64,000 nucleotides of DNA from Octopus vulgaris (lineage: Eukaryota). The position numbers were made by a program, and so were the translations under genes. The number at the start of each line of letters is the position of its first letter. Position 1 is the stretch's first letter. The stretch covers positions 80,042,001 through 80,106,000 of the forward strand of contig OX597826.1 in assembly GCA_951406725.2 (NCBI GenBank), given 5' to 3'. Below, one piece after another: positions 2,550 to 55,423 of this stretch. Below the pieces are notes generated by a model. The model searched no databases and had not been told where the DNA came from. It worked only from the letters and a program-made list of their open reading frames with translations.

Positions 2550-2946
2550 CCTTTCTACTCTAGGTACAAGGTCTGAAATTTTGGGCGAGGGGGCCAGTCG
2601 ATTCGATCGACCCCAGTACGCAACTGGTACTTAATTCATCGACTCCGAAAGGATGAAAGGCAAAGTAGACCTCTGCGGAATTTGAAACCAGAACGTAAAG
2701 ACAGGCGAAATACCTATTTCTTTACTACCCATAAGGGACTAAACACAGAGAGGACAAACAAGGACAGACAAAGGGATTAAGTCGATTATATTGACCCCAG
2801 TGCGTAACTGGTACTTATTTAATCGATCGCGAAAGGATGAAAGGCAAAGTCTACCTCGGCGGAATTTGAACTCAGAACGTAGCGGCAAACAAAATACCGA
2901 CAAGCATTTCGCCCGACGTGCTAACGATTTTGCCTGCTTCCCCACC
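2550..2946 (-). mobile_element. Same SINE family, dimeric form
   Basis: Two core copies separated by the CTACCCA.AAGGG spacer; A-box-like head at the right end. Confidence 0.85.
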
Positions 2947-3510
2947 TTTAAAGCTAAACGGTGATGCCTACAGCTACACAAAGAGTATTTGCACACGGCA
3001 CGGAATTGACGTATAATGTGAATGCGCGCGCAGGTGTGTATGTGTATGCAAGTTTGAGTTCATGAATGCACCTCTGTGCATACCTAAACGGACGGGTAGG
3101 TGTGTCACATAAGTCGTTAGGCTTCTCTCAAACAACATAAATACATAACAACAGTGAAATAATTTCTTTATTCACGTGTTTTATTTACATAACCAAACGA
3201 AAGAAAGTGGATCTCTTTTATTTGTTGATTCCAAACACAGAAAGACTGCAGCGTATATGCAGTCTTATATTATCTACGCACCAGCAGTGCCACCACGGTT
3301 GTAACAACAAGGCAGAATTCCTCCCTAAATAGGCAGCATTAAGAAAGAAAAATAAACAATCCAAGAGGGACACGTGAAACATTGTAATAAAATAAAAGTG
3401 GAAGGCAATGCAAGCGTGTATGTTTGATATATTAATGGCCTTGTGTGTGTATAACATATATATAAATATATGTACGAATATGTGTATATGTATATAAGTA
3501 TATGCATACA

Positions 3511-3573
<63 letters not shown>

Positions 3574-3850
3574 ACAATTGAGGGTAAAATTAATTAATTA
3601 ATCAATTTCACCAAGTGTTCAGTATGTAAAAGGACCATTTAAGGCGAATTCAAAATATTACATTATATAATTAGGGCTTAGTAAAATAAATTACTTTGCC
3701 ACATACTGAACTTAGTAGAAATAGCAGCCAAAAAAATTTTCTTAGCATTTCTACTACTTAAAAGAAAATTTCTCTCAGATAATGTTTACTCCAGACAGCC
3801 CACGAAGGTTTGGAGGTAAATACAGAAAAATATCACAAGTACATAGATCG

Positions 3851-3913
3851 TTTGAGTACGTCAACGTTTCAAGATTAGCCAAATAAAATCAGCATTTCTT
3901 TCGTCAGCTCAAA
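3851..3913 (-). ncRNA. Type I hammerhead ribozyme (inverted-arm copy)
   Basis: Exact reverse complement of 4318-4380. Confidence 0.9.
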
Positions 3914-4317
3914 ATTTCTTAATTTGGATTTGGAAACACTAAAAAGAAGGAACTTTACCTATCCGCGAACTTGTCGCTTCAGATGAATCACTCCAACTAA
4001 CAGTATCAACAAATTCAAAATGCGCAGGCGTAAATCTCTGCAATCCCCTTCCACCACGTGGTCTATCTAGCAAACATTATATTTTAACCGCGAGAACCGA
4101 GGCAGTATGACCGAGAGAAATGAATTATAATATCAACAATTGAGGGTAAAATTAATTAATTAATCAATTTCACCAAGTGGAAGGGGATTGCAGAGATTTA
4201 CGCCTGCGCATTTTGAATTTGTTGATACTGTTAGTTGGAGTGATTCATCTGAAGCGACAAGTTCGCGGATAGGTAAAGTTCCTTCTTTTTAGTGTTTCCA
4301 AATCCAAATTAAGAAAT

Positions 4318-4380
4318 TTTGAGCTGACGAAAGAAATGCTGATTTTATTTGGCTAATCTTGAAACGTTGACGTACTCAAA
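4318..4380 (+). ncRNA. Type I hammerhead ribozyme
   Basis: TTTGAG-CTGACGA-AAGA...TCTT-GAAA-CG TTGA CG-TA-CTCAAA: 6-bp stem I, intact CUGANGA and GAAA core, stems II and III, GUA cleavage triplet (4372-4374). Confidence 0.9.
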
Positions 4381-4557
4381 CGATCTATGTACTTGTGATA
4401 TTTTTCTGTATTTACCTCCAAACCTTCGTGGGCTGTCTGGAGTAAACATTATCTGAAGAAATTTTCTTTTAAGTAGTAGAAATGCTAAGAAAATTTTTTT
4501 TGGCTGCTATTTCTACTAAGTTCAGTATGTGGCAAAGTAATTTATTTTACTAAGCCC

Positions 4558-4628
<71 letters not shown>

Positions 4629-5098: not shown

Positions 5099-6177
5099 TT
5101 AGCTTGAGTAAAAAGTAAGCAACATTATGAACCATGGATAATTTGTACTGGGAATTTGCAGAGTTTTGATTTTTTTTAAACAATTTTTTTTGCTATAGTC
5201 TGATAATACAGACGTAGACTTTCCCAAATGCATCAAAAAATTAACATTGAAATTTTTTTCACCGTTGTTACAATCATCTGAAATGGATGTAAAGAAGCTG
5301 AAACTGCGATATCAACGATATCAACCAGTGAGTGGTCAGAAAATGATTTAAATGATTTCACAGTGGAAATCTGAGTCTCGAAGATAGCGAGCGTAGTGGA
5401 GGCCAATGTGTCATTGATGACGGTCGATTAAAGACAGTCGTTGAGAAATATCCACGTAAAACCCCTCGAGGACTGACAACAGACCTTCATGTCAGCCAGA
5501 AAATTGCCTGAAATCATTTGCATGCGATTGGAAATTGAAAAAAGCTTGACAAATTGGTACCACACGATTTGAAAGAAAATCAGAAAATGTGCAGATATGA
5601 AGTTTGGTCATCGCTTCTTCTCCGTGACCAGACTCTCTCCCTGTTTATTTCCCTAAACCTGAAATCTTGAAAAAGAAGGTTATGGTGACTCTTTGGTGGT
5701 GTACTGCTGGTGTCATCCACAATAACTTCTTAAAACTGGAAAAACCGTTACTGCAGGAGCATTGCCAAAATGAAGGAAAAACTGATACTCCTCCGTTCCA
5801 GACTGGTCAACAGAAGAAGCTCGATCATTCTTCTTGACAATGCTCGACCAAACGTTTCACTAATGACGCTTCAGAAGTTGAGTGAATTTGGCTACGAAGT
5901 TCTTCCTTTCCCTGCTTATTCCCCAAACCTTTCTCCTACCGGCTACCACCCTTTCAACACCTTGATTGTTTCCCGCGAGAGAAGGAGTTCAAAAATCAAA
6001 CCGATGCTGAAAGTTATTTCAAAGAGTTCATCAGCTCCAGAACTCCAGATTATTAACTCGGCAAAAATGTGTTGATTGTAATGGTATTTACTTTAATGAA
6101 TAAAATTTCCGCATTGTTGAAATATATTGTGATGAATTTCATGTTTCAAAACGTTGTTTACTTTTTCCTCAGCCTGA
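5099..6177 (+). mobile_element. Mariner (Tc1/mariner) transposon relic with both TIRs
   Basis: TA-flanked imperfect TIRs (TTAGCTTGAGTAAAAAGTAAGCAAC / revcomp TCAGGCTGAGGAAAAAGTAAACAAC); broken transposase with LVPHDL (WVPHEL), VMVTLWW, LLDNARP and AYSPNLSP (YSPDLAP). Confidence 0.9.
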
Positions 6178-9658: not shown

Positions 9659-9701
<43 letters not shown>

Positions 9702-9877
9702 ATAAATATTAGGGAATAAATCCAAATTTACAGGGAAAAAAATCAGATTTAGGATTAAATCCAATTTTATAGTAAAATATTATAAAATATTATTAGAGAC
9801 AAAACCACTATTTTGCAAAACAAACAAGGAAAGACTTAATCAATACATAAAATTTTAATAAATAGTCAAAAAAACCG

Positions 9878-9920
9878 CCACTACAATTGTTTCTTGTCTT
9901 GATCGACAATCTTCAGGTGG
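9878..9920 (-). ncRNA. Minimal type I hammerhead ribozyme
   Basis: Minus strand CCAC-CTGAAGA-TTGTC gatcaa GACAA-GAAAC-AATT-GTA-GTGG; palindromic stem III region (ACAATTGT) as in PLE minimal hammerheads. Confidence 0.85.
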
Positions 9921-9974
9921 ACTTCCAATAAGTCAGTTTCAAATTTCATAATTTGAAACTGACTTATTGGAAGT

Positions 9975-10017
9975 CCACCTGAAAATTGTCGATCAAGACA
10001 AGAAACAATTGTAGTGG
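9975..10017 (+). ncRNA. Minimal hammerhead, G8>A core mutant
   Basis: Same fold, but CTGAAAA (A at 9984) replaces CTGAAGA. Confidence 0.75.
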
Positions 10018-10104
10018 CGGTTTTTTTGACTATTTATTAAAATTTTATGTATTGATTAAGTCTTTCCTTGTTTGTTTTGCAAAATAGTGGTTTTGTCTCT
10101 AATA

Positions 10105-10271
<167 letters not shown>

Positions 10272-21426: not shown

Positions 21427-21478
<52 letters not shown>

Positions 21479-21650
21479 ATAAATATTAGGGAATGAATCC
21501 AAAATTACAGGGAAAAATCAGATTTAGGGTTAAATCCAATTTTATAGTAAAATATTATATAATATAATTCGAGACAAAACCACTATTTTAAAACCAAACA
21601 AGGAAAGACTTAATCAATACATAAAATTTTAATATAAATTAAATAAACCG

Positions 21651-21694
21651 CCACTACAAATGTTTCATGTCTGCTACCGACAATCTTCAGGTGG
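21651..21694 (-). ncRNA. Minimal type I hammerhead ribozyme
   Basis: Minus strand CCAC-CTGAAGA-T TGTC ggtagca GACA T-GAAAC-ATTT-GTA-GTGG. Confidence 0.78.
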
Positions 21695-21769
21695 ATTTTC
21701 GATCTAAAAATATCTTCTAATCAGTATCAACTTTTGATACTGATTAGAAGATATTTTTAGATCGAAAAT

Positions 21770-21813
21770 CCACCTGAAGATTGTCGGTAGCAGACATGAA
21801 ACATTTGTAGTGG
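21770..21813 (+). ncRNA. Minimal type I hammerhead ribozyme (inverted-arm copy)
   Basis: Plus-strand copy of the same motif, core intact. Confidence 0.78.
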
Positions 21814-21897
21814 CGGTTTATTTAATTTATATTAAAATTTTATGTATTGATTAAGTCTTTCCTTGTTTGGTTTTAAAATAGTGGTTTTGTCTCGAAT

Positions 21898-21958
<61 letters not shown>

Positions 21959-33881: not shown

Positions 33882-34012
33882 GGTTGTTATACTCTTTCTT
33901 CTTTCAATAGGATAAAGAAACTCACTGTATGCATTGATACGCCATTGAACTAAACACACCGGATTGTTTTATTTTCCAAAAATGGAATTAATAGAAATCT
34001 GAAAAACATTAC

Positions 34013-34401
34013 CTGATTCGATGAAGTGGCGAAAATCGATTCTTTGGCTCCCGTCAACGAGATGGTAAGGACGTGACAGTCTTGTCGAGAGAAGAAACAA
34101 ACCAACGTGTACTCGACAAAAGCAGCAAAGACGAAAAGAAGGCAGGCCACTGTCCATATGTCAATGGCCTTGATGTAGGAGACTGGGGGTAGGTCCCCGC
34201 TGTTGCTCTGTCTCTGGGTAATCATTGTTAGGATTGTCAAGCTGCTGAGGGAGATCCTGGCAGCGGTGGATTCGGTGGGTAGCCAGAACGACAACCACGA
34301 TATCACCACAATCAATGTACTGGGGAGGTAGGCGTGCAGCATGTAATAGGCATACTTCCGTTGGAGATGGAAACTGGTTGAGATACAAGTAAAGTTGTTT
34401 T
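34013..34401 (-). CDS. Same channel, exon encoding end of loop C and TM1-TM3
   Basis: ctcttgcag|AA AAC ... AAT CAG|gtaatg; 389 bp, phase 1/0. ENNFTCISTSFHLQRKYAYYMLHAYLPSTLIVVISWLSFWL...AARISLSSLTILTMITQ...LPPVSYIKAIDIW...FVFAAFVEY matches anion-channel TM1-TM3 motifs. Confidence 0.97.
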
Positions 34402-34522
34402 CTGCAAGAGAGAGATAGAGAGAAAAATAAACAGAAGGATAAAATAAAACAGACGAATAAGGGATACACATTGGGAGACTAAGTAATCTGATAAGTGTAT
34501 GCGTGTACACACACACACACGG

Positions 34523-34555
<33 letters not shown>

Positions 34556-34565
34556 ATAATAATAA

Positions 34566-34623
<58 letters not shown>

Positions 34624-34624
<1 letters not shown>

Positions 34625-34868
34625 TGGAATATAATTCCAAATTTACAGGGAAAAATTCAATTTAGCGATTCTAAAGCATATTTCACAATATATAATTAAG
34701 AGAAATAACCTCTATTAAGTAATTCAATAGTGAATGGCATTATATCATATAGAAAAAATTTAAATATACTATAATAAATATTATTTAAAAAATCATTAAA
34801 TTAAATAAACATTAAATTGACTTTCACTATTGAATTACTTAATAGATGTTATTTCTCTTAATTATATA
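34624..34868. mobile_element. Short foldback element, no hammerhead retained
   Basis: 46 bp inverted arms 34689-34734 and 34823-34868 (1 mismatch); left tail TCCAAATTTACAGGGAAAAA shared with the 9.7/21.5 kb family. Confidence 0.7.
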
Positions 34869-35279: not shown

Positions 35280-36709
35280 GCAGCATGAAGTTTTGTCAGT
35301 GAACAGTGAACAGTTTTGTCAAAGCAACGAAAATATTTTGACAAATTAAATTTAAATGTTGAAGTGAATCTAACGGTTTTTGTGTGTTTCTTAAATGGCT
35401 TATATATATAAGCATTTTCTTTATATTCCATTCCCGAAAGTGTTTCTACTGGTTAAGTGTCCAAGTGTATCTTGATATAGCACTTATGCGCATTTAGCTC
35501 ATTTATATTAAATCAATTCCAATACAGAAAGAGAGAGGGTGGGGGGAAGAGAAGGAGAGTGAAGGAGAAAGAGAGAAAGATGGTTGTGCTGCTTGAGTGA
35601 CCAAACATCCAGCCATAGAACAGCCTCTACAGAATTTCATCAAACCAGTATCACTCACAACAAAGCCTATAATATCTATTATAATGGCTTAAGATCTGTT
35701 ACACACATAAGGTGACGAGCTGACCAAATGGTTGTTACGCTGGACAAAATACCTAGTCGTATTTCTTTCGGCTTTCCATTCTGAGTTCAAATTCCGTAGA
35801 GATCGACTCTGCATTTTATCCTTTCGGACTCGAGCACCAGTCGAGCACTGGGGTCGATGTAACCTTTTAGTTCCCTCCCTTCCAATTTGTAGCCGTGTGT
35901 ACCTATAGTAGAAACGATTTACTATTGCAAGCATCGAAGAAACATAATTTGCCTAATAGAACTTAAACCGGTTCGCTCCAGAATATCATATACATTATAG
36001 AATAACACATCATAATGTGAAGATATATGCTCAGGTTTCGCATAAAGTATTTCGCAGCTAACTCCAGGCACCAACGTTATAAAACGTCAGTAGCTGTAGT
36101 CTTTCGCTGGAATTTTCAATCGACAAATCACAAAGCAACAATCCCACAAGACTCGTCTATCATTCATTTAAAACGTCAAATAAAGCAAGAAGATTAGAAT
36201 TCATTCTGACATTCCAGAGACTGGAATCAGAATATGGACAGCAGAATATTGTTGTTAGTAAAAAGGGAAAGAAAAAATAATCATGAGAATGAAATATGAA
36301 AAAGAAGTTTGTGGTATTAACCAATCATATCCGGTGACAAACGGTTGTGTTTTTAAAGACTATTTGGAAAGGAAAGCTGTTGCCACAGACACACACACAC
36401 ACACACACAGACACAGACACACACACACACACACACACACATACACACACACACACACACACGTATATATACATGCGTATGTACATATATATATATATAT
36501 AAATATATGCATGTGTGTGTGTATATATATATATATATATACAATCATAGACACACACATACACAGAAACACAGAAACACACGCACACACACACACATAT
36601 ATATATATAACGTATATGCATATATGTGTGTGCGCACACGCATGCGTGTGTGAGAGTAAATGTCGGTGTTCCTCCGAATACTTGTGGGAGATGAAATATA
36701 AAAACCAAC

Positions 36710-54399: not shown

Positions 54400-55094
54400 T
54401 TATACATAAACACACACTCATATTCGACCAAGTGCTTGAAAATAGTATAAGATTGATGTATTGTGTGACAAGTATAAAATAGTACTAAAATATGCAAATA
54501 TACTCTGTAACCATACAGTTAGCAACTGTCTGAAAAAATTCGCTGAAAATGTTGACACCTCATGAAGCATCTTGCTCTTTCAAAATCAATGCATCATGCT
54601 GCTTGTATAGTGAAATATTAATCAAATATCATTGCCAAAAAGCGTAATGAATATGGAATGAATTTAAAATTTTTAGGAATGCACTAAAATTTTCCATGTT
54701 ATACAATTACAAGAAATGTTCTTGTTATATTTCTAAATGCCATGTTGTGTCATAAAGCACTGCAGTCTTTCAGATGTAAATGTGGTTTCAGTTATAGGTG
54801 AAAATTGGAAATAGGTCGCGGCTGAAATTCCTTAACCTTAATTACAGGTTAATATTCATAAACATAACCATTCTTAGTGTACTGACATACGAAGCCAGGT
54901 ACTAAAGAATTTATAACATAGAATACAGAAAAGCTGGTTTCTTTAATCACCATCCATCTTACTCTGCATCTTCTCTTTCCATCCGTCTCTCTTTCTGAAT
55001 ACAAAGAAAGAGAGGGGAAGATTGAGGAGACCAGCTTCTCTAAGGATATATCTATCTGTCTGTTTGTCTATCTCTGTATGTATATGTATGTTGG

Positions 55095-55162
<68 letters not shown>

Positions 55163-55167
<5 letters not shown>

Positions 55168-55423
55168 CAAAATTGGGGTAAAATTAATTAATTAATCAAT
55201 TTTACCAAGTATTCAGTATACAAAGGGACCATTTAAGGCGAATTCAAATTATTACATTATATAAAAGGGCTTAGTAAAATAAATTATTCCGATACGAACT
55301 CATTAGAAAAGATAAAAATTTTCAAAACTATTTCCAATATAAAACTCTTCATAAGTGTTTGCTCAATTCAACTCTCAAACATATATTTTCTTGTATATAT
55401 ATATATGAGTTCAGTATATATTT

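What the first reader, a model, noticed from the sequence alone, without database searches (positions are those of the whole stretch)
3568..4179. Head-to-tail junction implies a 562-nt circular or multimeric RNA template
Seen: 4130-4179 is an exact 50-bp copy of the element's outer end (3568-3617) in direct orientation. The minus strand therefore reads tail, 562-nt unit with one hammerhead, tail. The inverted arm starts at a GTG (4177-4179) shared by the tail copy and the arm. Inference: reverse transcription ran past one full unit of a circular or tandem RNA, then switched template through 3-nt microhomology. This would be a fossil of retrozyme-like circRNA replication.
Basis: partly seen in the sequence, partly recalled or inferred. 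Interest (0 to 1): 0.78.

Follow-up and report, generated by a model that had tools for sequence, protein, structure and literature searches.

The report
Two-armed 562-base hammerhead jumping element
This is one young copy of a multi-copy, non-coding 562-base repeat with a predicted self-cutting RNA motif, likely pasted into the genome by a Penelope-type retrotransposon enzyme from an RNA longer than one unit; whether that RNA was a circle is untested, and elements of this kind are already known.

Summary
Observation confirmed: 3568-3617 and 4130-4179 are identical, 562 apart, with one type I hammerhead motif per unit. The inverted arm (4177-4567) starts at a shared GTG and has 0 substitutions in 391 nt. 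The head-to-tail junction is not local. Nine contigs of one public run carry it with different flanking letters, and one contig of another organism has it in the same register. The layout is the known Penelope-like (PLE) footprint: partial tandem, inverted truncated copy, (TA)n target and two 3' ends 99 nt apart. Two copies of an unrelated family in the window are also two-armed with offset ends in (TA)n (offset 86 nt). The template had to be longer than one unit and intact at the ribozyme cut site. An uncut linear read-through RNA satisfies this as well as a circle (about 0.45 versus 0.35). The 3-nt microhomology has a 7% chance rate. No RNA was tested. Verdict: new member of a known kind (animal non-LTR retrozyme / non-autonomous PLE derivative); interest 0.3.

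The parts
3517..3571 (.). Left (TA)n target tract; last 4 letters shared with the element's outer end
   Evidence: sequence; overlap of 4 letters
3568..4129 (-). One full 562-nt non-coding unit, 33.8% GC; RNA sense is the minus strand
3568..3670 (-). PLE-type tail: about 99 nt between the outer and inner 3' ends (inferred reverse-transcription start sites); includes a 13-bp hairpin at 3583-3612
   Evidence: TA-rich loose ends before 3673 in 15 contigs of run X1
3568..3735 (-). Structured 3' module shared with much more abundant relatives; likely the enzyme-recognition region (inferred)
   Evidence: summed contig depth roughly ten- to hundredfold higher than in most of the rest; z -7.1 for 3568-3760; 84% copy at 55164-55323
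3851..3913 (-). Type I hammerhead motif: 6-bp stem I, complete core, extended stem II, short near-palindromic stem III, GUA cut site with the A at 3857
   Evidence: cleavage untested
4035..4129 (-). Head of the unit, predicted to pair at long range with 3768-3828
   Evidence: helices with mean pair probability 0.93-0.99; covariation not shown
4130..4179 (-). Truncated 3' end of a second unit (50 nt), making the 1.09-unit partial tandem; junction at 4129/4130
   Evidence: junction in other copies
4177..4179 (.). GTG microhomology at the inversion joint
   Evidence: 7% by chance
4177..4567 (+). Inverted 5'-truncated arm (copy of 4054 to 3664) with a second hammerhead copy at 4318-4380, ending at the inner site
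4562..4620 (.). Right (TA)n target tract; up to 8 letters shared with the inner site

Best explanation
This is one young insertion of a multi-copy, non-coding 562-nt element with a type I hammerhead motif, likely written into a (TA)n tract by the enzyme of a Penelope-like retrotransposon copying an RNA longer than one unit from two likely fixed start points about 99 nt apart. Shown: the 1.09-unit partial tandem, the inverted arm, (TA)n on both sides, the family-wide junction, and rare alleles shared by both arms. Inferred steps: (1) a tandem or partial-tandem donor is transcribed; (2) a PLE RT/GIY-YIG protein supplied in trans binds the structured 3' module and nicks both strands of a (TA)n tract; (3) one target end primes at the outer site (about 3570) and copies 612 nt, through the uncut ribozyme site, the whole unit and 50 nt of the next; (4) the other end primes at the inner site (about 3670) and copies about 390 nt of the same RNA or a sister RNA; (5) the two cDNA ends join at GTG/CAC. 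For the template I favour an uncut linear read-through RNA (about 0.45) slightly over a ligated circle (about 0.35); this locus cannot separate them.
For: Anatomy. Multi-copy: 5293, 2245, 1006 and 1169 contigs laid in 4 of 4 runs (3 organism codes, 3 studies), with all 30 of 30 bins covered in each. Junction inherited: in X2, 9 contigs have a loose end before 3571 whose consensus equals 4113-4131 in 19 consecutive letters (a 19-mer found once in the window) and differs beside them; in X3, one contig joins 4129 to 3570 with 2 letters between, the same register. Inner end: 15 X1 contigs have TA-rich loose ends before 3673. Two copies of an unrelated family (9699-10110, 21476-21902) are also two-armed in (TA)n, both with an 86-nt offset. 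One source: both arms carry alleles held by 0-0.15% (3988) and 0-2.9% (4005) of summed depth, and by 5-22% at 3760, 3800 and 4043. Non-coding: longest stop-free frame inside the unit is 55 aa; 0 of 10 frames hit an RT or GIY-YIG family. Only 2 listed variants fall in the 63-nt ribozyme, both in loops. Literature: PLE RT starts internally at two sites, extends both strands and uses uncut RNA in vitro (PMC11167929); partial tandem, inverted copy, tail and (TA)n bias are PLE traits (PMC8557442); animal retrozymes derive from PLEs (bioRxiv 10.64898/2026.07.22.740005).
Against: No autonomous partner was found or could be sought, since no genome is held. Junction rows were shown for only 2 of the 4 runs; the tool listed 24 loose ends and withheld 250. 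The offset (99 nt) is longer than the 30-40-bp tail in print, and both ends share 4-8 letters with (TA)n, whereas the anole enzyme started without homology. In the two sister elements the arms meet at loops of only 3-4 nt, which fits snap-back better than two independent cDNAs. Family variants did not support the long-range fold: 9 of 22 changes at paired sites kept pairing against 7.2 expected, with one likely compensatory pair, 3627/3701. No RNA evidence.
Confidence: 0.78

Rival explanations
1. One reading: the template was a 562-nt circle (hammerhead-cut and ligated at GUA), copied past one turn. This is a sub-case of the best explanation that differs only in the template.
For: Both arms pass through the GUA site intact, and contig depth shows no consistent step at 3857 (contig depth is a poor measure). 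The unit folds strongly as a circle on the ribozyme strand (z -7.2, other strand -2.7). Circles are abundant for coral, mussel and axolotl retrozymes (PMC7229834). Unchecked earlier scan notes report multi-unit arrays in sister families.
Against: This locus has one ribozyme per strand and cannot release a monomer itself. The fold is no better as a circle (-148.3) than as the linear unit (-153.4 kcal/mol), and its z-score comes mainly from local 3' hairpins. The active ribozyme fold competes with an inactive one (-9.9 versus -10.2 kcal/mol). Uncut RNA was the dominant PLE substrate in vitro, and only 1 of 9 Xenopus retrozyme dimers cleaved.
Confidence: 0.35
2. The inverted arm came from snap-back: the first cDNA's 3' end folded onto CAC at 4052-4054 of itself (a 122-nt loop) and was copied back, then was resolved by the endonuclease near the inner site.
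For: Arms share rare alleles and have 0 substitutions; sister elements have 3-4-nt central loops; Craig et al. ascribe the tail to endonuclease resolution.
Against: A fixed inner end (X1 loose ends; an 86-nt offset in both sister copies) and two-strand extension in vitro fit a second primed start; the microhomology is only 3 nt.
Confidence: 0.25
3. The 562-nt unit is only the pLTR repeat of an autonomous PLE whose donor has tandem pLTRs, not an independent non-autonomous element.
For: PLE pLTRs carry type I hammerheads; many relatives share only the 3' ~165 nt and diverge beyond about 3735.
Against: No ORF remnant was detected. The sequence continuing past the tail is the unit's own head in the copies shown.
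Confidence: 0.12
4. The 50-bp copy is a local duplication or an assembly artefact.
For: Palindromes next to (TA)n are hard to assemble; no contig spanning the inversion joint was examined.
Against: The junction occurs with other alleles in X2 and X3; the arm stops at a family-wide inner end.
Confidence: 0.04

Closest known systems
Animal non-LTR retrozymes (Cervera and de la Pena 2020, PMC7229834: 12 passages and Discussion read; Li, Clavereau and Pollet 2026, bioRxiv 10.64898/2026.07.22.740005: parts 1-3 of 5 read, supplements not seen)
   Same: Non-coding, low-GC unit with one type I hammerhead whose stem III is two base pairs plus a tetraloop; head-to-tail arrangement; proposed PLE mobilisation; 562 nt lies within the 51-972-bp range of Li et al.
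   Different: Only 1.09 units here, so it is not an 'active' two-ribozyme array under Li et al.'s rule; longer than the 150-450 bp of Cervera; no circle or cleavage shown; the parts I read do not describe two-armed insertions.
Penelope-like element insertions (Craig et al. 2021, PMC8557442: 12 passages and section 15 read)
   Same: Partial tandem, inverted 5'-truncated copy, tail on one side, (TA)n target; non-autonomous head-to-tail derivatives (MRC1) are described.
   Different: No RT/GIY-YIG ORF; tail 99 nt rather than 30-40; clade of the partner unknown.
Anole Poseidon element PAc (Frangieh et al. 2024, PMC11167929: parts 1-2 of 4 read)
   Same: Two internal start sites downstream of a hammerhead define the tail; both DNA strands are extended; AT-rich target.
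   Different: PAc starts lie in its ORF and have no homology to the target; here they are in non-coding hairpins and share 4-8 letters with (TA)n.

Membership tests
Non-LTR retrozyme | Type I hammerhead with conserved core in the unit | tested here: met
   All core positions and three stems present by manual check; not detected by Rfam
Non-LTR retrozyme | Non-coding, low-GC unit of a few hundred bases | tested here: met
   562 nt, 33.8% GC; longest internal stop-free frame 55 aa; 0 of 10 frames with a relevant Pfam hit
Non-LTR retrozyme | Head-to-tail arrangement inherited in the family | tested here: met
   Junction here, in 9 X2 contigs and in 1 X3 contig
Non-LTR retrozyme | At least two consecutive ribozyme-bearing units (Li et al. 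'active' rule) | tested here: inconclusive
   Not met at this locus (1.09 units); other loci could not be read because no genome is held and the contigs are short
Non-LTR retrozyme | Self-cleavage and accumulation as circular RNA | not testable with these tools
   No RNA data examined
PLE-type insertion | Partial tandem plus inverted 5'-truncated copy | tested here: met
PLE-type insertion | Tail at one end between two start sites | tested here: met
   99 nt, longer than the 30-40 bp in print; inner end recurs in 15 X1 contigs
PLE-type insertion | Microsatellite or AT-rich target | tested here: met
   (TA)n on both sides
Autonomous PLE | ORF with RT and GIY-YIG endonuclease | tested here: not met
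Non-autonomous PLE derivative | Sequence likeness to the pLTR of a coexisting autonomous PLE | not testable with these tools
   No genome; two metagenome scans found 0 loci

The most novel reading that the evidence does not exclude
A single 562-nt ribozyme circle is copied by a Penelope-type enzyme from two fixed start points at once, one into each end of a cut (TA)n tract, one cDNA rolling past a full turn. Such insertions would be direct genomic footprints of the proposed but unshown circle-to-genome step of animal retrozymes, and would name the start sites needed to rebuild it in vitro.
Probability: 0.28. Interest if true: 0.62.

Novelty: new member of a known kind. Interest (0 to 1): 0.3.

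Why it matters
The element class and the insertion layout are both in print. The value is a further family linking retrozymes to the PLE footprint, with two defined start sites and a shared 3' module that could be tested with a PLE enzyme. I found no paper on a cephalopod retrozyme (searches returned no such study) and none holding Penelope, inverted, twin priming, tail and microhomology together (0 papers); these searches cover open-access text only. Earlier notes of this scan describe sister families in the same genome with more copies, so this locus adds little beyond them.

Tried and rejected
Whole-genome copy census: no genome held. Metagenome pattern scans: 0 loci each. Rfam: 0 hits at gathering score in the window; 8 hits at E<=10 in 3500-4129, none a hammerhead, 7 in the (TA)n tract. 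Covariation variants: 40 variants examined, 18 at unpaired sites, 9 of 22 at paired sites keep pairing versus 7.2 expected; inconclusive, and partners were not phased. Circular versus linear folding energy does not favour a circle. One of 6 control stretches also gave z -3.85 with 10 shuffles, so only the -7 values stand clear. An ungapped 30-letter scan of the X2 loose end was uninformative (other places scored 20 of 30 against 19 of 30 at the junction); only the 19-letter run is specific. ORF remnants: none. Earlier-finding look-ups by sequence, near and relatives returned nothing. Of 5 close inverted pairs in the window, 3 were examined; the two 67-68-nt pairs were not. Rejected: local duplication; treating the 3-nt microhomology as proof of a switch; a cut linear monomer as template, which would stop at 3856.

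Full report
Observation. The repeat is real: 3568-3617 and 4130-4179 match in 50 of 50 letters, 562 apart, with no extension. Four of the letters are indistinguishable from the flanking (TA)n; the other 46 are far beyond chance. The arm 4177-4567 is the reverse complement of 4054-3664 with no substitution and two single-base indels, and GTG at 4177-4179 belongs to both pieces. Both ends run into (TA)n, so no target duplication can be read. The window is animal DNA rich in microsatellites, with an exon of a ligand-gated channel (PF02932). A cephalopod origin rests on my recall of its SINE-like repeats and on unchecked earlier notes, not on a test.

Ribozyme. The minus strand has a type I hammerhead at 3913-3851: 6-bp stem I, core CUGACGA and GAAA, a 4+5-bp stem II, a short stem III and a GUA site with the A at 3857. 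Rfam misses it, so this is a manual call. Stem III is nearly palindromic (self-duplex -10.8 kcal/mol), as in ribozymes that work better as dimers (PMC7229834, passages). The active fold is about as stable as an inactive one (-9.9 versus -10.2). Of the family variants listed, two fall in the ribozyme, both in loops, and one makes stem III a perfect palindrome. Cleavage is untested. The unit is non-coding.

Is the junction local? No genome is held, and two metagenome scans were empty. Public contigs laid on one unit gave 5293, 2245, 1006 and 1169 pieces in 4 of 4 runs, covering all 30 bins in each; X1 may be the source sample. In X2, 9 contigs continue outward from 3571 into letters that equal the unit's head (4113-4131) in 19 consecutive positions and differ beside them, so these are other copies with the same junction. 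One X3 contig joins 4129 to 3570 in the same register. No such row was shown for X1 or X5, but 250 loose ends were withheld. The diverged copy at 55160 ends on letters like the X2 form, a weak echo. The junction is therefore inherited.

Anatomy reinterpreted. The left arm ends at about 3571 and the right arm at the equivalent of 3670, 99 nt further in. Fifteen X1 contigs have TA-rich loose ends before 3673, so the inner end recurs. Two copies of an unrelated family (9699-10110 and 21476-21902, 83% alike) are also two-armed in (TA)n, both with an 86-nt offset. This is the PLE signature: partial tandem, inverted truncated copy, one-sided tail and microsatellite target (PMC8557442). In the anole element the tail is the stretch between two internal RT start sites, both DNA strands are extended, and uncut RNA is the main substrate in vitro (PMC11167929). 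The 3' ~165 nt form strong hairpins (z -7.1 for 3568-3760) and are shared with far more abundant relatives; I infer this is the recognition module.

One source for both arms. Both arms carry letters that are rare in the family contigs: 0-0.15% of depth at 3988, 0-2.9% at 4005, and 5-22% at three more sites (depth is not copy number). They were copied from one RNA or one donor, or one from the other. That fits two primings on one template and also snap-back. The fixed inner end favours the first; the 3-4-nt central loops of the sister elements favour the second. The 3-nt microhomology (7% by chance) does not decide.

Circle or line. A 612-nt cDNA through an intact GUA site needs an RNA longer than one unit that is uncut or re-ligated; a cut monomer would stop at 3856. 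A circle would do. So would a linear transcript of any tail-unit-tail or tandem donor, which passes the junction on without a circle. This locus has one ribozyme per strand and cannot make a circle itself. The unit folds strongly (circular z -7.2) and its head is predicted to pair with 3768-3828, which would zip a monomer, but the linear fold is as stable and family variants did not confirm the pairing (9 of 22 versus 7.2 expected). No RNA data were examined. I put an uncut linear template at about 0.45 and a circle at about 0.35.

Comparison and verdict. It works like, and meets the testable features of, an animal non-LTR retrozyme mobilised by PLEs (PMC7229834; bioRxiv 10.64898/2026.07.22.740005; supplements not seen, and they could list related families). 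A two-ribozyme array and circular RNA remain unshown, and it is not an autonomous PLE. Unchecked notes of this scan describe sister units of 359-544 nt, several with two-armed insertions; they agree but are not independent evidence. New member of a known kind; interest 0.3.

Noticed in passing
window 9699-10110 and 21476-21902: Two copies (83% alike) of another PLE-type family, each two-armed in (TA)n, with an 86-nt offset between the two 3' ends and central loops of 4 and 3 nt.
   Followed up: partly
window 55160-55400: One-armed, diverged relative (84% over about 170 nt) between (TA)n tracts; shares the 3' module and diverges beyond the equivalent of about 3740.
   Followed up: partly
window 3862 and 3888 (family variants): The only listed variants inside the ribozyme lie in loops; the one at 3862 (10-23% of depth) makes stem III a perfect palindrome, as a dimer-acting ribozyme would favour.
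   Followed up: partly
joints: 3591 to 4087 in X1 (depth 125) and 4129 to 4076 in X2 (depth 24): Single contigs suggesting internally deleted or locally rearranged derivatives of the unit.
   Followed up: no
window 2596-2714 and 2780-2898: Two adjacent 82%-alike copies of a short repeat; recalled as a cephalopod SINE, not tested.
   Followed up: no
window about 5200-6170: Decayed mariner-like transposase remnant by eye (recalled motifs); the one frame scanned had no Pfam hit at E<=0.1.
   Followed up: partly
window 33953-34642, minus strand: Exon of a neurotransmitter-gated ion channel gene (PF02932, E 1e-21); a probable further exon near 36700.
   Followed up: no
window 54700-55100: Control stretch that folds better than shuffles (z -3.85, 10 shuffles); cause not examined.
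   Followed up: no
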